Shown here one piece after another: positions 37,638-44,915 of a DNA stretch of 64,000 bases (the stretch's first letter is position 1; each line of letters starts with the position of its first letter). The stretch covers positions 19,265 to 83,264 of the forward strand of contig CAMTPA010000001.1 of assembly GCA_947074275.1 (NCBI GenBank), read 5' to 3'. Under the pieces are notes generated by a model. That model ran no database searches and had not been told where the DNA came from. It was given only the letters and a program-made list of their open reading frames with translations. This DNA comes from an uncultured Bacteroides sp. (GTDB taxonomy: Bacteria > Bacteroidota > Bacteroidia > Bacteroidales > Bacteroidaceae). The translations under genes were made by a program, and so were the position numbers.

Positions 37638-38368
37638 AACACCTACTACAACTCATTCTGCTGCTGGCAATGCCACTGATGGCTTCAGCCTGCCACAGCG
37701 AAAGCAGCAAAGAGTCTCAGCAAGGCCACCTGCAAGTGAAACACATTGATGCCAAAACGGTGGAGGCCGAAGATGTTCCAGCTCTGCTTCAACAAGCAGA
37801 AATCCCATTTCAGTCCATTGGCACGGTCAATTGGAGCAGCTTCCCCTATCGCCCCGATGTGAAATTTCGCATCGCCTACACACCACACGCATTGCTGCTG
37901 CACTATTGGGTGACAGAGGCAAGCGTGCGTGCCTTGTATGCGCAAGATGGCGAAGCGGTGTGGAGTGACTCGTGTGTGGAGTTTTTCTCCATTCCCGGTG
38001 GCGATGGCGTGTACTACAACATTGAATGCAACTGCATCGGCACCATTTTGATGCAAGCTGGCACGGAGCGAAGCGACAGGCAGTCCGCACCCGAAGAAAC
38101 AACCGCCCTGATAAAACGTTGGGCAAGTTTGGGCAACCAGCCATTTGAGGAGCGCATAGAAGAAACCACGTGGGAGGTGGCATTGGTGATTCCCTACGAG
38201 GTCTTTTTTCAGCACTCTATCAACTCGCTTGAGGGCAGAAACGTAGCAGCCAACTTTTACAAATGTGGCAGCGGATTGCAAACTCCTCATTACTTGACGT
38301 GGAATCCTGTGGGAACAACCAAACCCGACTTCCACCAGCCACTCTATTTCGGGCTACTATCCTTCTAA
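37634..38368 (+). CDS. CBM9-like/DOMON-type sugar-binding lipoprotein
   Basis: Start refined to ATG 37634 (ATGA overlap with the PfkB stop), giving the lipoprotein signal MKHLLQLILLLAMPLMASAC; motifs 'VWSDSCVEFF', 'YYNIECNCIG', 'ANFYKCG', 'HYLTW.P..T.KPDFHQP.YFG'. Confidence 0.8.
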   Translation: MKHLLQLILLLAMPLMASACHSESSKESQQGHLQVKHIDAKTVEAEDVPALLQQAEIPFQSIGTVNWSSFPYRPDVKFRIAYTPHALLLHYWVTEASVRALYAQDGEAVWSDSCVEFFSIPGGDGVYYNIECNCIGTILMQAGTERSDRQSAPEETTALIKRWASLGNQPFEERIEETTWEVALVIPYEVFFQHSINSLEGRNVAANFYKCGSGLQTPHYLTWNPVGTTKPDFHQPLYFGLLSF

Positions 38369-38554
38369 TCGCTTATTCTCATCTTCACGCCACAAATATT
38401 GGCAAACCCACACAACTGTCCAAGCCGATTGCTGAAAGTGACTTTAATAGTCTCTTCAACACCCCACTCTCTTCTTTCATTTATATATATACGCCCGTAA
38501 AGTATAGGAAATTCGCGTAAAAAAGAATAAGTTTATAATATATAGATACTTCTG

Positions 38555-38666
38555 ACGATAGCTATGCACATCTATCGCCTCAACTATGCACACTCCATTT
38601 GCTGGGTAGCTATATCTAACGCGGTAGGCATAGCTACCCAGCACGGTAGATAGGCCTTGCTACCAA
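38555..38666. repeat. Array of about five 22-bp quasi-palindromic units (dispersed repeat family, copy 2)
   Basis: Centres TGCA 38565, TGCA 38587, GCTA 38609, TAGC 38631 and GGCC 38653 are 22 bp apart. GATAGGCCTTGCTACCAA (38649-38666) is the exact reverse complement of 23703-23720. Perfect 13-bp inverted repeat at 38601-38613/38630-38642. Confidence 0.75.
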
Positions 38667-38778
38667 TCAGGGTGTAGGAATAGCACCATTTCCGAATGAG
38701 TTCAACGAATGAACAGATATATTGTTTCAAAAAAAAATGTATCTTTGCTACACCAAAAATTTAAAATACAACCTCTAT

Positions 38779-40512
38779 ATGCCAAGCAAAATAACGGAAT
38801 CCATCACGGCATCTAAAATGCGGTTTACGCTGTTTGTATTTTTATTTATTCAAACAATCACCTTGTTTGCGCAGTCGTCTGCTGTCTTCGACTCGCTCAC
38901 TACCCTCATCAATCAGAGCAAAGGAGAAGAGAAGCTAAATATCTGTTATCAGGAGTGCAGCCGAGCGGCGGCACACACCACGGTGGACAACGAACTGGCA
39001 TTGCTTCACATCTACCAAGCAGAGGCCGAAAATCAGAACAATGCCAAACACGAGATGATGGTGCGCACACTGCGACTCTACACCTTCTACAACAGCAATA
39101 TGCACGATAGCATCTTCGTCTATATCAACAATGATTTGGAGGTGTTTCAAAAACACGAGCAATGGGACTTTTACTATTCGTGTCGCAGCCTGACGGTGGA
39201 GAGTTACCGCTATGCCAACCGTTTGCAGAGTGCTCTGAGAGAGGCGCAGGCTATGTACGACTTTGCTGTGAGCCACCACAGCAACTATGGAAAAGGGGTG
39301 GCCGCCTACCTCATTGCATCGTGTCACCAAAGTATGAATCGCAGCGCACAAGCGGTGGAGTTTTTCGAGACGGCAGAAGAGTGTATGCTGACAGAGGGCA
39401 ACGTGGGGCAACTGCACAATATGTATGGCATCGCATGGGAGTCGTTTCTGGCTGCAGGCGAAAACGAGAAACTGCAAAAGATGCTGGACAGGTGGGACGA
39501 TATGTGGAAGGAGTATTGTAAGAAAAACGAGATGCAGCTCACCGATGTGGCTATCTACTACTTGGTGTGTGTATCGGCAAGGGCACACTTGTATACCGAT
39601 AACAAAGATTTTGAAGCGGCCAGACGTGAGTTAGATGAAGCTGCCCGCTTAGCCGAAAATCAGAAAGAAATTTCCAAAGCTTTGTGGTTGAAAGAAGAGG
39701 CACGATATGCCGAAGCGATGGGTGGCTTGGACACAGCACTACACTATTTGGACGAATGCCACAAGGTGCAAACAAACCACAACAACCAGATTGCCGCTGT
39801 GGCTACACAAGAGATGCGAGCCAACTTGCTTATGAAACTTGGACGAATGGACGAAGCCGCACAAATCTACCGCAAGCTACTCCCTCAAAAAGATGCTATG
39901 ATGCAATTGGATATGGCTGCACAGCTCGACGACTTTAGTTCTATCTACAAGGTAGACACACTGCGTGAAGAGAAGATTCTGCTTAGATTGTGGCTGACGG
40001 TTGCTTTAATTGGTTTTGGAGCGATGGCGCTACTTACCACAGGATATTTTTACTATCAAAAGAAGCTGCAAGCCAAAAACAGGACTATTGTCTTGCAATA
40101 CCAAAAACAAAAAAATACCGAAAAGACACTCGAACAGATATTGGACAGCGAATCTTCCACCACATCGTCGGACAAAGATATGGAGATGTTTATGGAAATC
40201 AAGAAGTTTTTGAATAACAAAGAGGTACTCTCAAATCCTTCATTAGATCGCAACCTGCTTGCTGCCGAATTTGGCACCAACTACACCTATATCTCAAGAG
40301 CCATACAAGTTGGTGCGGGGGTAAATGTTAGTGCTTATATCAACCAAGTGCGAATAGACTATGCTTGCGAACTGCTGAAACAAGATAGCGAAAATAGCAT
40401 TGCCGAAGTGTTAGAGAAGTGTGGTTTTCAGTCGCGTTCCTACTTCTACCGCATCTTCAAAAGTCAAATGAATATGTCGCCCACCGAGTTCCAAAAAGAG
40501 TTGAAAGAGTAG
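38779..40512 (+). CDS. Membrane-spanning one-component regulator: signal/TM, periplasmic TPR-like helical domain, TM, cytoplasmic AraC HTH
   Basis: Hydrophobic 'MRFTLFVFLFIQTITLFAQ'; TPR-like helices ('AYLIASCHQSMNRSAQAVEFFETA', 'ANLLMKLGRMDEAAQIYRK'); TM 'LWLTVALIGFGAMALLTTGYFYY'; AraC 'LAAEFGTNYTYISRAI...YINQVRIDYACELL...CGFQSRSYFYRIFK..MNMSPTEF'. The -7 element TATCTTTG at 38740-38747 argues for a start at 38779 or 38818, not 38722. Confidence 0.88.
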   Translation: MPSKITESITASKMRFTLFVFLFIQTITLFAQSSAVFDSLTTLINQSKGEEKLNICYQECSRAAAHTTVDNELALLHIYQAEAENQNNAKHEMMVRTLRLYTFYNSNMHDSIFVYINNDLEVFQKHEQWDFYYSCRSLTVESYRYANRLQSALREAQAMYDFAVSHHSNYGKGVAAYLIASCHQSMNRSAQAVEFFETAEECMLTEGNVGQLHNMYGIAWESFLAAGENEKLQKMLDRWDDMWKEYCKKNEMQLTDVAIYYLVCVSARAHLYTDNKDFEAARRELDEAARLAENQKEISKALWLKEEARYAEAMGGLDTALHYLDECHKVQTNHNNQIAAVATQEMRANLLMKLGRMDEAAQIYRKLLPQKDAMMQLDMAAQLDDFSSIYKVDTLREEKILLRLWLTVALIGFGAMALLTTGYFYYQKKLQAKNRTIVLQYQKQKNTEKTLEQILDSESSTTSSDKDMEMFMEIKKFLNNKEVLSNPSLDRNLLAAEFGTNYTYISRAIQVGAGVNVSAYINQVRIDYACELLKQDSENSIAEVLEKCGFQSRSYFYRIFKSQMNMSPTEFQKELKE

Positions 40513-40634
40513 CCCCTTCACCCTACAAGAACCGTGTTTCTATTTTTCAAAATGAGCGTTATCATTTGGAAAATGAATGTATTTCGCACCTGAGAGCAAA
40601 AACAAAAGCCCCACAACTACTTATTTATCAACTC

Positions 40635-40700
40635 ATTGCATATAGTAGACAATTAATTGCGCATAGTAGACACATCTAAAAAGTATTCTCATTAATTTAG
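40635..40700 (+). promoter_or_regulatory. 17-bp direct repeat with 21-bp period upstream of the pilin gene (candidate AraC operator) and a degenerate -7 element
   Basis: ATTGCATATAGTAGACA (40635-40651) and ATTGCGCATAGTAGACA (40656-40672); TAATTTAG at 40693-40700 has one mismatch to TAnnTTTG. Confidence 0.5.
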
Positions 40701-40780
40701 CTGTCGAAACGATTGTAGCATCATAGCTGATATCTAAATGCACAACTACAACTTGAAAAATACAACACTAAAAAAAGGAT

Positions 40781-43630
40781 ATGAAGAGAAGTATTCTATT
40801 ACACGCAGCCACCGCGCTGCTGTTGCTTGGCACTGCTACGGGCTGCCAGCAAGAAATTGTTGAGGACAACGCACCCTCACAAGGGGCAATGAGAGAAATC
40901 ATCATCCAAGCCTCGATGGGCGAACCGGGCGTAAACACAAGGGCTTCGATGACACCCAGTGGAGATGACTTTATGAACACTACGTGGGTATCTCAATGGC
41001 AATCGCACGACCAATTGGGAGCTTGGAGCACGGGGGTCTCCCAACTTTCGGATTTCAATATCAATGCCGGATACGACAACGAGACGAAGAGTGCCTCGTT
41101 TACAGGACAAATACCACAAGATGCAACCCAAGTACGCTTTATATACCCCTACGATGCTGCCGCAACAATCACAAGCAACACATACACCGTAGACATCAGC
41201 ACCCAAGTGTGCGACGGTGGAGCGGTGTTTCACCACTATGCCAAAAACAAACCAATGGTGAGTGAGTTGATGGATGTGTCTGACGGAAATATCGCTGATG
41301 TAACACTACATAACCTCTGCGCAGGAATGGAGTATCGCATCAAGTTAGACCCTGCCATTACACAAACCGATGTACGGCTGCTGCGTGTGGAGCTGACAGG
41401 TGCGAATATAAAGAGCACCGCCACCCTTGCGCTCACCGACGGAGAGCTGACATATTCGGACGCAGCCAACCAAACTATTGCGATGAATATAGAGAACTCA
41501 CCACAGCTGGATGACTACAAGGGCGAAAAATACTTCTCGGTAGTTGGATCGGTGTTTCCGTTTGAAATGGATGTGGACGATGAAATCACCCTCACGGCAT
41601 ATACCAACTATGGTTTATACACGCGAACATTCAAAGCCACCGAAACAATGAACTTCGGATTGGGCAAGCACCACTACCTTAGCGTGACGATAAATGCTTT
41701 CACAGTTTCAAACACTTGGCTGGGAAAAGGAACAGCAGCCGACCCTTACTTAATAAGGAATCATACCGATATGAAATATATCGCTAATTGCGTTAAATAT
41801 GGGTCGAATGATGATCAAGGTGGGTATATAGAATTTACCTCAGAGGGAGTACATTTCAAACTAATGAATGATATAGACCTCGAATGTAATGAGCAAGAAC
41901 AATGGTTGCCAATAGGAGTGTGCGAGATTGGTCTCAGTATTCCTTTTGCAGGCACATTCGACGGGAATGGCAAAAGAGTAACGGGGCTTTATATTAATAC
42001 AAATTCTCAATGGGATAATATGGCTTTGTTTGGCAACATAGAGGGTGCAACCATTAAAAACCTCATTGTAGAAGGCAATGTGACAGGAGGTGGTAACAAT
42101 GCGGGCATTGTAGCGAATGCACTCAACAGCACCATCATCAACTGCTGCAACGCAGTGGTGGTGACAGGGGGAGTATATGCTTCTGGCGGTATAGCTGGAA
42201 TTATTTCCAACACTTCGATAATGAATTGCTACAACACGGCAGCAATTAACGCAAGCAGAACGGCGAATTATTTCGGCTCCATAGCTGGCTATGCTGATAA
42301 TCAATCCAAGCTAAAGAATTGCTATACCTTAAAGGACTGCGCTGAAACGGGATATTTCGTAGATGGACAAATCATTAACGAAGGAGTCCAGATAGAACAA
42401 TGTTATGACGAGGCATCAACAGATATTTCCCTCACTACGCTCAACACCAACGCAGCTTCCATTCCGGGAGCTTGTGCTTGGATGGAAGGTGCTGACGGCT
42501 ACCCCACCTTTGCGTTTGAGGAATTGCCTGTGGCAAGTGGCGAAATCACCGATAACTGGATAGACTTTGTAGCCCCCAACTTTGGTGGCGGACAAGGCAC
42601 ACAGAAGAATCCCTACATCATCAGCACCCCACAAGAGCTTGCCAAATTGGCGGCGGATGTGAATGGAGATAACACCTACTCAGGTAAATACTTCGCCTTG
42701 GCTTGCGACATCGACCTCAGCGGCAAGCAATGGACGGCGATAGGAGTGTATAAAAACATGTATGGTGTTGTAATTGAAAAGCCCTTCGACGGTACATTCG
42801 ATGGAAACAACAAAAAGATTACGGGGCTGTATATCAACAACAGCAACACAAGAACCGATGTTCAGGGGTTGTTTGGATATTTAGGCAATAGCGGCACTGT
42901 TCAAAACCTGCGCATGTCGGGTTCAATCACCGTTCAAGCCCATAATGTGGGCGGCGTGATAGCATACAACACAGGTATCGTCAAGGGTTGTAGCTTCAGC
43001 GGCACCGTGTCGGCTACGGTTTGGGATACTGCTGGTGGCAATAGCAGTTGCACCGTTGGTGGCATTGTAGGTTGTTCTAAAGGAACAATCATCTCTTGCC
43101 ACAACACAGGGATGGTGACGGCAACAAGTCAATCAACTTCCGCATCTCCTTATATTGGTGGCGTTGTTGGTAATACTTATACCTCTATTACTTCCTGCTA
43201 TAACATTGGTACGGTATCGGTTATGGGTGATAGCAATAGTTATGTTGGTGGCATAGCTGGGGTTGTAGAAATTATTTCTTCTTGCTACAACAATGGCGCT
43301 GTGTCGACTTCGGGAGGTTATACTGGCGGCATCGCAGGTTCTTCTATTTCCATCACCTCCTGTTACAACACAGGTGCGGTGACGGGAGAAAATAGCAATA
43401 TCGGTGGCATTGCTGGAAATACTTATAGCAGGGTAGAATATAGTTATTGTCTGAATGCAACTGACGGTGGCACAGATACAACAATAGGAAGTGGCAATGC
43501 TACCCTTAACAATGTAGCTGCACTATCAAAAGCCGAAATGACCAATGGCACAATGTATAGCAACTTAATACTGGGCGATAGCAATTATTGGAAAAATCGC
43601 ACAGGCGATTATCCTTGGTTGGGCTTTTAA
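40781..43630 (+). CDS. Fimbrillin (Mfa-like, type V pilin) lipoprotein with C-terminal GLUG-repeat adhesin-like domains
   Basis: Lipobox TATGC; pilin-type propeptide ending 'NTR|AS'; 'W...D.LG.W', 'IYPY', 'LHNLCA' N-terminal pilin motifs; two 'G.GT..DPY.I' modules with 'F.GTFDGN.K.ITGLYIN...LFG...GA..KNL...G' and many 'GGIAG..I..CYN.G.V' GLUG repeats. Confidence 0.8.
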   Translation: MKRSILLHAATALLLLGTATGCQQEIVEDNAPSQGAMREIIIQASMGEPGVNTRASMTPSGDDFMNTTWVSQWQSHDQLGAWSTGVSQLSDFNINAGYDNETKSASFTGQIPQDATQVRFIYPYDAAATITSNTYTVDISTQVCDGGAVFHHYAKNKPMVSELMDVSDGNIADVTLHNLCAGMEYRIKLDPAITQTDVRLLRVELTGANIKSTATLALTDGELTYSDAANQTIAMNIENSPQLDDYKGEKYFSVVGSVFPFEMDVDDEITLTAYTNYGLYTRTFKATETMNFGLGKHHYLSVTINAFTVSNTWLGKGTAADPYLIRNHTDMKYIANCVKYGSNDDQGGYIEFTSEGVHFKLMNDIDLECNEQEQWLPIGVCEIGLSIPFAGTFDGNGKRVTGLYINTNSQWDNMALFGNIEGATIKNLIVEGNVTGGGNNAGIVANALNSTIINCCNAVVVTGGVYASGGIAGIISNTSIMNCYNTAAINASRTANYFGSIAGYADNQSKLKNCYTLKDCAETGYFVDGQIINEGVQIEQCYDEASTDISLTTLNTNAASIPGACAWMEGADGYPTFAFEELPVASGEITDNWIDFVAPNFGGGQGTQKNPYIISTPQELAKLAADVNGDNTYSGKYFALACDIDLSGKQWTAIGVYKNMYGVVIEKPFDGTFDGNNKKITGLYINNSNTRTDVQGLFGYLGNSGTVQNLRMSGSITVQAHNVGGVIAYNTGIVKGCSFSGTVSATVWDTAGGNSSCTVGGIVGCSKGTIISCHNTGMVTATSQSTSASPYIGGVVGNTYTSITSCYNIGTVSVMGDSNSYVGGIAGVVEIISSCYNNGAVSTSGGYTGGIAGSSISITSCYNTGAVTGENSNIGGIAGNTYSRVEYSYCLNATDGGTDTTIGSGNATLNNVAALSKAEMTNGTMYSNLILGDSNYWKNRTGDYPWLGF

Positions 43631-43667
43631 GCAAAAAGAGTAATAGCAATAAAAAACAACAGATAGA

Positions 43668-43778
43668 ATGAAAACAAAAATTAGATACGTGAAACCCACC
43701 ATTGAGGTGATAACCATAGAGCTGGAAGCATCCGTGCTATCGGGCAGCAACCAGAGTTCGGGAACAGGATGGGGATAA
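43668..43778 (+). CDS. Unannotated 36-aa peptide MKTKIRYVKPTIEVITIELEASVLSGSNQSSGTGWG
   Basis: Below the track cutoff. ATG 37 nt after the pilin stop, A-rich leader with A at -3, closed by TAATAG, and inside the same transcription unit before the 43801 terminator. Confidence 0.7.
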   Translation: MKTKIRYVKPTIEVITIELEASVLSGSNQSSGTGWG

Positions 43779-43800
43779 TAGCTTGCTGAGCTACTTCCAC

Positions 43801-43862
43801 AAAAAAAGAACGCTGTAAAAAAGATAACAAAATGTTTTTCTTTTTGGCAGCGTTCTTTTTTT
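43801..43862 (+). terminator. Strong hairpin terminator closing the pilin-peptide unit
   Basis: AAAAAAAGAACGCTG...CAGCGTTCTTTTTTT 15-bp perfect arms extended by an imperfect inner stem; the -7 element TATCTTTG of the next gene begins at 43862. Confidence 0.8.
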
Positions 43863-43889
43863 ATCTTTGCAAATAAAACCATCCCCACA

Positions 43890-44915
43890 ATGAAACATCT
43901 ACTAAAGCTGTCGACAATATGCGTAGCCATCTTGTTGATGGTGGCTTGCACCAACCACAACGACGACCACACACAGGGCTACACCATCAATGGCAACATA
44001 CAAGCCCTCGACGGCACCATCTATCTGATAAAGAAAGACGGGAAAAGAAAAGAGACCGTGATAGACTCTACCAACGTGGCCGACGGAAAGTTTGCTTTTA
44101 GCGGACGGATAGAAACACCCATGTATGTGTTTGTGCAAAAGAAATACGAAAGCAACAGCCCCATCGTGAGCTTCTTTCTCGAAAACTCGGATATAACCAT
44201 CGCTGGAAACACCTCGGAGTTGGAGGAGATAAGCGTGAGCGGCTCTACCGAGAATGATTTGTATCGATATGGTTACTACCCTGTGAGAAACGACTTGGAG
44301 AAAGTAGTGGCGTTTGTAAAGCAAAACCCCAGCAGCATAGCTGCCGCCTATGTGATGATGGACGCGCTGATATACGAACTACCCATAGATGAAACTGAGG
44401 CGATGCTAAACGCTATGAGCACCACCGCTCAAAACAGCTCTTATCTACAATGGGTGAGAAGCACCTTAGTAGCCAAAAGAGAAAGTTTGCCCGGAAAGCA
44501 ATACAAGGAAATAGTATTGCCCGATGTGGAAGGCAGCCAGTTGTCGCTATCGAACGTGTTGACGGACAACAAGTATGTGCTGCTCAACTTCTGGGCATCG
44601 TGGTGCCCTTATTGTCGTCGCGACAATCCCGGTTTGGTTTCGGCATACACGCAGTTCAAAGAGAAAGGATTTGATGTATTTGGCGTGTCGCTGGACTACA
44701 ACGCATCGCAATGGACTAAAGCCATAGCAGACGATGGGTTGGTTTGGAGCAATGTATCGGATTTGAAACGCTGGGAATGCGCACCAGCTTTGGAGTATGG
44801 TGTTATCTTGATTCCATCCAACTTTTTGATAGACTCCAACGGCATCATCGTGGCGCAAAATTTGCACAACGACGCTTTGGAAGCAAAGTTAACCGAACTA
44901 TTGGGAGCTGAGTAG
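43890..44915 (+). CDS. TlpA/ResA-like thiol-disulfide oxidoreductase lipoprotein (DUF4369 plus thioredoxin-like domain)
   Basis: Lipobox MVAC; 'YVLLNFWASWCPYCR' CxxC motif; 'GVSLD', 'IPSNFLID.NG.IVA'. Confidence 0.92.
   Translation: MKHLLKLSTICVAILLMVACTNHNDDHTQGYTINGNIQALDGTIYLIKKDGKRKETVIDSTNVADGKFAFSGRIETPMYVFVQKKYESNSPIVSFFLENSDITIAGNTSELEEISVSGSTENDLYRYGYYPVRNDLEKVVAFVKQNPSSIAAAYVMMDALIYELPIDETEAMLNAMSTTAQNSSYLQWVRSTLVAKRESLPGKQYKEIVLPDVEGSQLSLSNVLTDNKYVLLNFWASWCPYCRRDNPGLVSAYTQFKEKGFDVFGVSLDYNASQWTKAIADDGLVWSNVSDLKRWECAPALEYGVILIPSNFLIDSNGIIVAQNLHNDALEAKLTELLGAE

What the first reader, a model, noticed from the sequence alone, without database searches (positions are those of the whole stretch)
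43668..43778. Unannotated 36-aa peptide with a YxxP leader-like motif and a Ser/Gly-rich tail
Seen: MKTKIRYVKPTIEVITIELEASVLSGSNQSSGTGWG, with a basic N-terminus, 'YVKP', a beta-strand-prone acidic/hydrophobic core and a flexible tail ending in GWG. It has no Sec signal and falls below the 60-aa ORF cutoff. Known: YxxP-type motifs mark leader peptides bound by RiPP recognition elements (lasso-peptide class). No such maturase is in this window. I recall similar short hypothetical ORFs beside Bacteroidales pilin-like lipoprotein genes but could not verify this. Inference: precursor of a signalling peptide processed in trans, or a free donor strand.
Basis: partly seen in the sequence, partly recalled or inferred. 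Interest (0 to 1): 0.68.

Follow-up and report, generated by a model that had tools for sequence, protein, structure and literature searches.

The report
Leader-like micropeptide partnering Bacteroidales pilin adhesins
This is a real, conserved 36-residue peptide gene that sits beside genes for large pilus-type surface adhesins in Bacteroidales; its front end looks like the 'leader' of a modified-peptide precursor, but no modifying enzymes lie nearby, so its mode of action is probably new.

Summary
The ORF at 43668-43778 (+) is there exactly as described. An ORF of this size is common by chance, but this one is a genuine gene. It has at least 8 sequence variants in fish-gut Bacteroidales contigs. 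Only its reading frame stays open in all of them, and residues 7-27 are under strong purifying selection.

It is the last gene of a cassette: AraC-type regulator, then a 949-aa surface lipoprotein (type V pilin fold plus GLUG repeats), then the peptide, then a strong terminator. Divergent relatives of the peptide lie beside fimbrillin/GLUG genes in three other Bacteroidales MAGs that were fetched through the adhesin alone. The pairing is therefore old and specific.

The conserved front end (K-x-x-Y-x-x-P-x-I-E-V-I) matches the docking motif of lasso and LPP leader peptides. The only relative found outside Bacteroidales is the likely precursor in a complete LPP-type RiPP cluster. No RRE, kinase, peptidase or exporter lies near any Bacteroidales copy.

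Best reading (about 0.4): a leader-plus-payload peptide made with the adhesin and handled by machinery encoded elsewhere. Main rival (about 0.3): it binds the adhesin directly. No Pfam or NCBIfam family covers it.

The parts
38740..38747 (+). Bacteroides-type -7 promoter motif (TATCTTTG, TAnnTTTG consensus), probably the promoter of the cassette
   Evidence: It is one of only two TAnnTTTG matches on the + strand in 38300-44000; the other, at 43862, lies after the terminator. The consensus itself is from my own knowledge of Bacteroides promoters. This is a consensus match only.
38779..40512 (+). AraC-family regulator (577 aa from ATG 38779) with an N-terminal signal-like segment, TPR repeats, a transmembrane helix and a C-terminal HTH_18/HTH_AraC domain
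   Evidence: Pfam gives HTH_18 at 7.9e-18, HTH_AraC and TPR_8. The gene call in the near-identical contig L001 (1112-2845) maps to 38779-40512. AraC-type HTH genes also lie upstream of the adhesin in L006, L013 and L016.
40781..43630 (+). 949-aa surface lipoprotein: lipobox Cys22, anchor-strand-like REIIIQASM, Arg54 (NTR|A) site, type V pilin-fold module (about residues 1-310), two GLUG-repeat modules, C-terminus ...DYPWLGF
   Evidence: Pfam Glug scores 2e-13. The N-terminal 320 aa align to the Mfa_like_1 region of P0008 at E 6e-29. An AF2 model of residues 1-330 (pLDDT 59.6, pTM 0.61) matches Bacteroidales type V pilins on Foldseek: 4k4k at 3e-9, 3t2l, 3sy6, Mfa4 5dhm and Mfa3 5nf4. Paralogues or orthologues at 37-56% identity all end in PWLG[FH].
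43631..43667 (+). 37-nt A-rich spacer with no promoter motif
   Evidence: Sequence; no TAnnTTTG match; no sigma-70-like site.
43668..43778 (+). 36-aa micropeptide gene (the finding)
43686..43712 (+). Residues 7-15, YVKPTIEVI: RRE-type docking motif ([Y/W]xxPx[L/V/I] plus a beta-strand E-V-I)
   Evidence: Y7, P10, E13, V14 and I15 are invariant in the close family. The motif is conserved in the distant members L021, L023 and L026 and in the LPP-cluster peptide of L018. Motif definition is from PMC13381572.
43719..43748 (+). Residues 18-27, ELEASVLSGS: acidic/hydrophobic segment ending in invariant G26-S27, the possible leader/payload junction
   Evidence: E18, L19, E20, A21, V23, L24, G26 and S27 are invariant. 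Calling this a junction is inference.
43749..43775 (+). Residues 28-36, NQSSGTGWG: variable stretch (28-33) followed by invariant G-W(-G)
   Evidence: Close variants differ mainly here: SNQTKGSGWG, SNQTTGTGWG, SNQTPGTGWG, SDIKKGSGWG, SDTKKGGGWG. pN is higher than in residues 7-27.
43801..43862 (.). A-run / long hairpin / T-run: intrinsic terminator, bidirectional in form, that closes the cassette
   Evidence: RNA fold of 43776-43875 gives -32.7 kcal/mol, z -5.98, with 0 of 200 shuffles as stable. Rfam gives only sub-threshold matches.

Best explanation
The ORF encodes a leader-plus-payload micropeptide that is a dedicated accessory gene of operons for type V-pilin/GLUG surface adhesins in Bacteroidales. 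It is transcribed with the adhesin from the promoter in front of the AraC-type regulator and translated on its own. It has no fold of its own. Its conserved first 24-27 residues (aromatic Tyr, Pro kink, amphipathic I-E-V-I-x-I-E-x-E strand) act as a docking element that adds a beta-strand to a partner protein, as RRE-bound RiPP leaders do. The short, lineage-variable tail ending in Trp is the payload. The most likely partner is an RRE/PqqD-type adaptor encoded elsewhere in the genome. That adaptor would hand the peptide to a leader peptidase and/or exporter, so a small Trp-containing peptide (possibly modified at the invariant Ser27) is released whenever the adhesin is made. Shown here: the gene is real, it is under purifying selection, it is linked to the adhesin gene, the motif matches RRE-binding leaders, the related peptide in L018 lies within an LPP cluster (that it is the cluster's precursor is inferred from position and motif), and cis enzymes are absent. 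Inferred: RRE binding, cleavage, export and any modification.
For: Coding conservation. One transcription unit: there are promoter motifs only at 38740 and 43862, and a terminator at 43801-43862. Linkage to the adhesin: close family. A profile of the close family picks out the small ORF next to the distant fimbrillin/GLUG genes P0010, P0012 and P0022 as the top hit among 3,115 six-frame ORF pieces (E 8e-6, 4e-5, 1e-4). Those loci were fetched through the adhesin, not the peptide. Leader likeness: the peptide matches position by position the PbaA residues that contact the RRE, and it fits the [Y/W]xxPx[L/V/I/F/A] motif. L017/L018 carry a 40-aa peptide that is 55% identical over residues 1-31 without gaps, with Tyr at position 7. 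It sits in a cluster with an ABC exporter, an HprK/ScmC-like kinase, an 87-aa PqqD-like RRE, an S24/S26 SpI-like peptidase and NTP_transf_5. That is the LPP architecture of PMC13381572. The pattern of a conserved N-terminus and a variable C-terminus matches what is reported for LPP precursors. AF2 predicts an extended chain with no secondary structure. One identical peptide (P0124) follows two adhesins that are only 39-47% identical, and the DNA identity is confined to the ORF. This argues for a shared partner rather than an adhesin-specific one.
Against: No RRE, kinase, leader peptidase or exporter lies in the 64-kb window or in any of the roughly 12 Bacteroidales loci examined. LPP and paeninodin systems are reported as restricted to Bacillota. 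Known Bacteroidales RiPP precursors use GG motifs with PCAT transporters. The full LPP consensus is not met and the register of any phospho-Ser is uncertain. The L018 match was seeded by a 9-residue pattern, so its E-value is inflated. There is no expression data. Strict linkage to a non-enzyme gene is unusual for RiPP precursors.
Confidence: 0.4

Rival explanations
1. The peptide is a direct physical partner of the adhesin. Unprocessed, it adds its amphipathic strand to the adhesin itself. It could do so before export, holding the long beta-helical precursor in an export-competent state. Or it could do so outside the cell as a free donor or cap strand, filling the pilin groove left when the anchor strand is cut at Arg54. 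The adhesin has a pilin module but no donor strand of its own.
For: The only constant neighbour across deep divergence is the fimbrillin/GLUG gene, in either gene order. The two genes are co-transcribed at about 1:1. No other conserved gene accompanies them. The N-terminal module has the type V pilin fold, closest to the tip and accessory pilins Mfa4 and Mfa3, with a TR|A site but GLUG repeats where donor strands would be. Tip pilins lack donor strands and accept one from another subunit. The peptide is extended and strand-prone.
Against: The peptide has no signal peptide, while type V strand exchange takes place on the cell surface after Sec/Lol export. Its conserved part is N-terminal, whereas the extreme C-terminus starts strand exchange in Mfa1. 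There is no covariation with the adhesins' anchor strands, which differ between lineages while IEVIxIE stays fixed. The identical peptide P0124 follows two diverged adhesins. P0008-type Mfa/GLUG genes have no such ORF. Co-folding could not be run.
Confidence: 0.3
2. The peptide is a cytoplasmic regulatory micropeptide. It stays in the cell and reports or limits expression of the adhesin cassette. For example, it might act on regulators of paralogous cassettes so that only one adhesin is made at a time, or feed back on its own operon.
For: The lack of an export signal fits a cytoplasmic role. Several paralogous cassettes occur in one sample: L002, L006, L008 and L020 all come from ERZ14022228. 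AraC-type regulators head the cassettes in the window, L006, L013 and L016. The variable tail could set specificity.
Against: The regulators are not conserved in sensor architecture, and no AraC-type gene is seen beside the peptide in the parts of L021, L023 and L026 that were fetched (3-4 kb on each side). This reading does not explain the specific RRE-leader-like motif. Gene order varies, so a cis effect is unlikely. There is no precedent I can cite for a 36-aa regulator of this kind in Bacteroidales.
Confidence: 0.2
3. The peptide is a canonical lasso-peptide or LPP precursor whose gene cluster happens to lie outside the window and has nothing to do with the adhesin.
For: The YxxPxI motif and the relative in the L018 cluster.
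Against: The tail of the window family has no Asp or Glu to form a macrolactam. There is no Thr at the position that would be -2. The LPP consensus YxxPxVLxHQxIxFETxxS is matched only at Y, P and I. No cluster lies near any of about 12 Bacteroidales loci. The strict linkage to adhesin genes would be left unexplained.
Confidence: 0.04
4. The ORF is a chance ORF or a non-coding element, such as a 3' UTR or the flank of the terminator.
For: ORFs of this size are abundant by chance. There is no expression data.
Against: The frame is open only on this strand and in this frame in all homologues. Substitutions are biased to third positions with low pN/pS. The start codon is conserved. The family recurs in loci found independently.
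Confidence: 0.02

Closest known systems
LppA precursors of linear polyphosphorylated peptides (LPP; Popov et al., Nat Commun 2026, PMC13381572)
   Same: Both are short ribosomal peptides (LPP precursors are 35-200 aa) with a conserved N-terminus and a variable C-terminus. Both carry a YxxP RRE-binding motif near the N-terminus followed by a beta-strand. Both have a Ser shortly after a hydrophobic/acidic junction. The nearest non-Bacteroidales relative (L018) lies in a full LPP-type cluster.
   Different: The Bacteroidales loci have no SpI-like peptidase, RRE, HprK-like kinase, NTP transferase or MsbA-like exporter nearby. The consensus VLxHQxIxFET is not kept. The host is Bacteroidales, whereas LPP is reported only from Bacillota. 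The peptide is fixed next to a pilin/GLUG adhesin gene.
Paeninodin-like and other lasso-peptide leaders (PbaA/PbaB1, TbiA/TbiB1)
   Same: K-x-x-[W/Y]-x-x-P-x-[L/I]-E-V-[L/I] corresponds residue for residue to the PbaA positions that contact the RRE. Tyr rather than Trp is the form used by most non-paeninodin lasso leaders and by LPP.
   Different: The tail has no ring-forming Asp or Glu, the core is only about 9-12 residues, and there is no B1/B2/C machinery.
Donor strands of type V pili (FimA, Mfa1; PMC13655056)
   Same: It is a strand-prone segment of 15-20 residues encoded next to a protein with the type V pilin fold and an Arg cleavage site but no donor strand of its own.
   Different: Known donor strands are the C-terminal end of an exported lipoprotein pilin. 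This is a separate gene with no export signal, and its conserved part is the N-terminus.
Dispersed RiPP precursors served by one distant enzyme (prochlorosin-type; from my own knowledge, not tested here)
   Same: Many precursor genes scattered in a genome, with a conserved leader and a hypervariable core.
   Different: Those precursors are not tied to one particular non-enzyme neighbour gene, and their modifying enzyme is known.

Membership tests
LPP precursor (LppA) | [Y]xxP RRE-binding motif in the N-terminal leader | tested here: met
   Y7-V-K-P10-T-I12, invariant in the family; motif as defined.
LPP precursor (LppA) | Full leader consensus YxxPxVLxHQxIxFET|xxS | tested here: not met
   Only Y, P and the [V/I] position match without gaps. 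FET is absent. L018 fits only if a 3-residue deletion is allowed.
LPP precursor (LppA) | Cluster with SpI-like peptidase, discrete RRE, HprK-like kinase, NTP transferase and MsbA-like exporter within about 12 kb | tested here: not met
   None in the 64-kb window or in the related loci. All are present around the L018 peptide.
LPP precursor (LppA) | Ser at core position 3 that is polyphosphorylated | tested here: inconclusive
   S27 is invariant and follows a hydrophobic pair, as in the distant members, but the cleavage register is unknown. S22 is Pro in the other members. Phosphorylation cannot be tested here.
Lasso peptide precursor | [Y/W]xxPx[L/V/I/F/A] leader motif | tested here: met
Lasso peptide precursor | Core with an N-terminal Gly/Ala/Ser/Cys and Asp/Glu at position 7-9 for the macrolactam (from my own knowledge) | tested here: not met
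   There is no acidic residue after E20 in the window peptide or after residue 28 in the close family.
Lasso peptide precursor | Adjacent B (or B1/B2) and C enzymes | tested here: not met
Type V pilus donor strand | C-terminal segment of a Sec/Lol-exported lipoprotein pilin | tested here: not met
   It is a separate ORF. Its frame relative to the adhesin ORF varies between loci, so it is not joined by recoding (coordinates). It has no signal peptide.
Type V pilus donor strand | An acceptor pilin with a groove and an Arg cleavage site encoded alongside | tested here: met
   The neighbour has the type V pilin fold and an NTR|A site.
Type V pilus donor strand | Physical insertion into the acceptor groove | not testable with these tools
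Double-glycine (GG) leader peptide / PCAT substrate | Match to the GG-leader profile, and a C39-peptidase ABC transporter nearby | tested here: not met
   No NCBIfam or Pfam match at all, even at E up to 10 (NCBIfam) or up to 1 (Pfam); the four relatives also give nothing in Pfam at E up to 10. There is no PCAT in the window. Only G26-S27, L at -4 and E at -8 resemble the motif.

The most novel reading that the evidence does not exclude
The micropeptide is an obligatory, separately encoded structural partner of type V-pilin/GLUG adhesins. It would be a free strand that completes or caps the adhesin, filling the pilin groove after the anchor strand is cut, or keeping the beta-helix export-competent. 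In that case a docking motif known only from RiPP leaders has been recruited for adhesin assembly, and strand complementation in type V systems can be supplied in trans by a 36-residue gene product.
Probability: 0.25. Interest if true: 0.8.

Novelty: new variant of a known kind. Interest (0 to 1): 0.6.

Why it matters
The work defines an unannotated micropeptide family: no Pfam or NCBIfam model matches it, and gene callers often miss it. The family is hard-wired to genes for type V-pilin/GLUG surface adhesins across Bacteroidales, an order whose pili and adhesins shape gut and oral colonisation. Either reading is informative. If RiPP-type leader recognition operates in Bacteroidales without a local gene cluster and is coupled to adhesin expression, the reach of the recently described LPP/lasso leader logic extends beyond Bacillota. 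If the adhesin needs a trans-encoded strand, that adds a new step to type V assembly. Both readings can be tested with a deletion, a tagged peptide and mass spectrometry.

Tried and rejected
- **Family libraries.** Pfam and NCBIfam scans of the peptide and of four relatives gave nothing, even at E up to 10.
- **Solved structures.** Sequence and profile searches gave only chance matches.
- **Word-indexed protein search.** With the peptide padded to 41 aa it found only the peptide itself.
- **Collection scans.** The genome-contig scan with the adhesin and the one with the peptide profile both found nothing. The first metagenome pattern (ELEAxVLxGSNQ) gave 0 hits. The viral-contig scan gave none.
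- **Split gene or recoding.** No GLUG homologue among 120 carries the peptide as a fused tail. The relative reading frames differ between loci. Rejected.
- **Antisense gene.** The 135-aa minus-strand ORF 43565-43972 shares wobble positions with the peptide frame but is interrupted in the homologues. Rejected.
- **Non-coding RNA.** Rfam gives only sub-threshold matches on the terminator hairpin.
- **Downstream TlpA-like gene as partner.** It is not conserved in other loci and lies beyond the terminator. Rejected.
- **Homology between the large neighbour in L018 and the GLUG adhesin.** None found.
- **Linkage to all GLUG proteins.** P0008 (Bacteroidales) and P0024 (Firmicutes) have no such ORF. 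The link holds for a subset only.
- **Expression.** No RNA run holds the region.
- **Literature.** Searches for the motif strings found nothing relevant.

Full report
**1. The observation**

The 111-nt ORF at 43668-43778 (+) reads MKTKIRYVKPTIEVITIELEASVLSGSNQSSGTGWG*, exactly as reported. An ORF of this length means nothing on its own: 121 ORFs of at least 30 aa overlap the surrounding 12 kb. No Pfam or NCBIfam model matches it.

**2. Is it a gene?**

- A filter-free phmmer search of 1.84 billion representative proteins found two relatives. These are P0122 (36 aa, 69% identical) and P0123 (56 aa, with the homologous part at its C-terminus).
- A profile search added P0124.
- Reading the contigs added a fifth variant in L016 and the close variants P0125-P0127.
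- Codon by codon, changes fall mostly on third positions. Y7, P10, E13-V14-I15, E18-L19-E20-A21, V23-L24, G26-S27, G32, G34 and W35 never change.
- A minus-strand frame shares its wobble positions with this frame, so I checked all six frames in seven homologues. Only + frame 1 is open in all of them.
- Nei-Gojobori counts for residues 7-27 give pN 0.02-0.27 against pS 0.26-0.94. The tail (residues 28-35) is less constrained.

The ORF is therefore a protein-coding gene under purifying selection.

**3. Where it sits in the window**

The window is a Bacteroidales chromosome segment with SusC/SusD loci, hybrid two-component regulators and housekeeping genes. It has 44% G+C. DNA runs that hold it are labelled fish gut metagenome. 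Its MnmG and UvrC have no relatives at 90% identity in 15 billion proteins, so the lineage is poorly sampled.

The peptide gene starts 37 nt after the stop of a 949-aa lipoprotein gene (40781-43630). It is followed by a long hairpin between an A-run and a T-run (43801-43862; -32.7 kcal/mol, z -6).

On the + strand between 38300 and 44000 there are only two Bacteroides-type TAnnTTTG promoter motifs. One lies in front of the AraC-type regulator gene (38740) and one lies after the hairpin, in front of the TlpA-like gene (43862). The simplest reading is a single transcription unit: regulator (38779-40512), adhesin, peptide, terminator. This rests on consensus matches only. No RNA data exist for the region.

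**4. The neighbour**

- The 949-aa protein has a lipobox (Cys22) and an acidic stretch after the Cys.
- A strand-like REIIIQASM segment is followed by NTR|A at Arg54.
- Two GLUG-repeat modules follow (Pfam Glug 2e-13).
- Its first 320 residues align to the Mfa_like_1 region of P0008 (E 6e-29).
- An AF2 model of residues 1-330 has modest confidence (pLDDT 59.6, pTM 0.61). Foldseek still places it among Bacteroidales type V pilin-superfamily structures. The hits include 4k4k (3e-9), 3t2l, 3sy6, the tip pilin Mfa4 (5dhm) and Mfa3 (5nf4).

So the protein is a type V pilin module carrying a GLUG adhesin part where stalk pilins carry their donor strands. In type V pili, tip pilins lack donor strands and accept one from another subunit. 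The anchor strand is cut at an Arg and replaced on the cell surface (PMC13655056).

**5. The linkage is conserved**

Every close relative of the peptide lies 30-90 nt downstream of a homologous lipoprotein gene. These lipoproteins are 37-56% identical to the window's and all end in PWLG[FH]. The genes further downstream differ between loci: TlpA/RuvB, a zeta toxin, DUF4922/SpoIID, or a cytochrome b-like gene. An AraC-type HTH gene precedes the adhesin in the window, L006, L013 and L016.

Four different loci come from one sample (L002, L006, L008, L020), so the cassette is probably multi-copy.

One peptide, P0124, follows two adhesins that are only 39-47% identical at their ends. The near-identity of the DNA (one synonymous change in 111 nt) begins just upstream of the start codon and ends at the stop. 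This looks like gene conversion of the peptide gene alone.

I then fetched loci of distant fimbrillin/GLUG homologues through the adhesin, without reference to the peptide.

| Locus | Source | Small ORF | Position |
|---|---|---|---|
| L023 | GCA_028748585.1 | 45 aa, MKTNYESPKIEVIEIEFEDAVF... | 32 nt after P0010, between GLUG genes |
| L021 | Rikenellaceae MAG | 39 aa, uncalled, MNKNYEAPQIEVIEIEIEGVL... | after P0012, inside an array of Mfa-like/GLUG/LRR lipoproteins |
| L026 | Rikenellaceae MAG | 42 aa, MKNMNYESPQIEIVEIEVEDAILSVSGTSNQ...GGSAW | 11 nt upstream of P0022 |

A profile built only from the close family ranks these three ORFs first among 3,115 six-frame pieces of those loci (E 8e-6, 4e-5, 1e-4). 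P0008 and a Firmicutes GLUG protein have no such ORF. The partnership with fimbrillin/GLUG genes is therefore old, holds in either gene order, and is the only constant feature of the context.

**6. What the peptide resembles**

A metagenome scan found one relative outside Bacteroidales (L017/L018): MKEKDIYVKPTIEVIEFEMEDSIAQSAQGSSLFEDIWGED. It is 55% identical over residues 1-31 without gaps, with Tyr at position 7 in both.

That peptide lies in an AT-rich contig from landfill, compost or soil samples. The cluster around it contains:

- an ABC exporter;
- an HprK/ScmC-like kinase;
- an 87-aa PqqD-like protein, which weakly matches the lasso RREs TbiB1 and PbaB1;
- an S24/S26 signal-peptidase-like protein;
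- an NTP_transf_5 protein.

This is the architecture of the linear polyphosphorylated peptide (LPP) clusters described in 2026 (PMC13381572). LPP precursors are 35-200 aa, with a conserved YxxP leader bound by the RRE LppB and a variable C-terminus.

The same paper lists the residues of the paeninodin-like lasso leader PbaA that contact its RRE: K-18, W-15, P-12, L-10, E-9, V-8 and L-7. The window peptide has K4, Y7, P10, I12, E13, V14 and I15 at exactly that spacing.

The L018 hit was seeded by a 9-residue pattern, so its E-value overstates the case. Even so, it shares the start position and lies in a RiPP cluster at the place expected for the precursor. A chance pattern match would be very unlikely to show both features.

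AF2 gives the peptide no secondary structure of its own, as expected for a segment that folds onto a partner.

**7. What is missing**

No RRE, kinase, leader peptidase, radical SAM enzyme, cyclase or peptide exporter is present in the 64-kb window. Large ORFs were read, gap ORFs and the remaining genes. None is present in any Bacteroidales locus examined either.

LPP and paeninodins are reported as confined to Bacillota. A survey of Bacteroidales RiPP clusters found GG-motif precursors with PCAT transporters, not YxxP leaders.

**8. Reading**

I weighed four facts:

- the strict linkage to the adhesin gene;
- the RRE-leader-like motif;
- the absence of enzymes in cis;
- the absence of an export signal.

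The reading that fits them best (about 0.4) is a leader-plus-payload peptide made with the adhesin. A trans-encoded RRE-type adaptor would recognise its front end, and a peptidase or exporter would release a short Trp-containing tail. The invariant G26-S27 may mark the junction or a modified Ser, by analogy with the S3 phospho-site of LPP.

Only the gene, its selection, its linkage, the motif match and the cluster context of its relative are shown. Binding, cleavage, export and modification are inferred.

The main rival (about 0.3) is direct strand addition to the adhesin. It explains the linkage best. It must, however, explain how a peptide without a signal reaches a surface protein, and why an identical peptide serves two diverged adhesins.

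A cytoplasmic regulatory role (about 0.2) is possible but does not explain the motif. Canonical lasso or LPP membership fails defining features. A chance ORF is excluded.

**9. Novelty**

The kind of element, a leader-type ribosomal peptide, is known. An unannotated family with no local gene cluster, fixed to type V-pilin/GLUG adhesin genes in Bacteroidales, has not been described in the libraries or papers I could search. I rate it a new variant of a known kind, with moderate to high interest.

**10. Limits**

- There are no expression data.
- No whole genomes of carriers could be searched.
- Co-folding was not possible.
- The pilin-fold model is of modest confidence.
- The census of distant loci is small: three of four independent Bacteroidales loci were positive.

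Noticed in passing
window 38507-38666 (also L019 1865-2046 and L020 1968-2108): A non-coding element of about 160 nt just upstream of the AraC-type gene is about 76% identical to a segment lying about 150 nt downstream of a paralogous peptide gene in L019 and L020. The window copy holds a perfect 12-bp inverted repeat (CTGGGTAGCTAT / ATAGCTACCCAG). Rfam has no match. It could be a cassette boundary, a promoter region or a small RNA.
   Followed up: partly
window about 38437 (L001 position 770): A contig that is 99.7% identical from another sample (L001) is collinear with the window only from 38437 rightwards. To the left it carries an ABC permease gene instead of the window's CBM9-like and PfkB genes. 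This is a strain-level synteny break at the left edge of the regulator-adhesin-peptide cassette.
   Followed up: partly
L010 1819-1929 versus L013 3714-3824: Two loci with clearly different adhesin genes share an almost identical peptide ORF (one synonymous change). The flanks diverge right at the ORF borders, and several contigs end about 40 nt after the stop. This suggests gene conversion or a repeat that breaks assemblies.
   Followed up: partly
L007 1777-1947: This variant lacks the canonical ATG (it has ATT) and uses an upstream ATG, giving a 56-aa product. The final Gly codon is replaced by TGA, so the peptide ends in Trp.
   Followed up: no
L018 3480-10989 (and L017): A complete LPP-type RiPP cluster (exporter, HprK-like kinase, PqqD-like RRE, SpI-like peptidase, NTP_transf_5, 40-aa precursor) in a contig from landfill, compost or soil samples. 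A gene for a 954-aa secreted protein with Listeria-Bacteroides repeats starts 2 nt after the precursor's stop. A leader-type peptide thus abuts a large surface protein here too.
   Followed up: partly
L006 1134-5370: In this paralogue the adhesin ORF reads about 36 residues past the usual ...PWLGF end. The peptide gene is followed by a 60-aa ORF and a zeta-toxin/AAA_33 gene, which is probably a toxin-antitoxin pair.
   Followed up: no
window 43890-44915: A TlpA-like lipoprotein (DUF4369 plus an AhpC/TSA thioredoxin fold with a CxxC motif) with its own TAnnTTTG promoter motif right after the terminator. It is not conserved next to the peptide elsewhere, so it is not part of the cassette.
   Followed up: yes
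L021 90-8537 and L023 779-8838: In Rikenellaceae-type MAGs the micro-ORF lies inside arrays of several fimbrillin-like, GLUG or LRR_5 lipoprotein genes with no obvious stalk pilin. These are operons made only of tip-like adhesins.
   Followed up: partly
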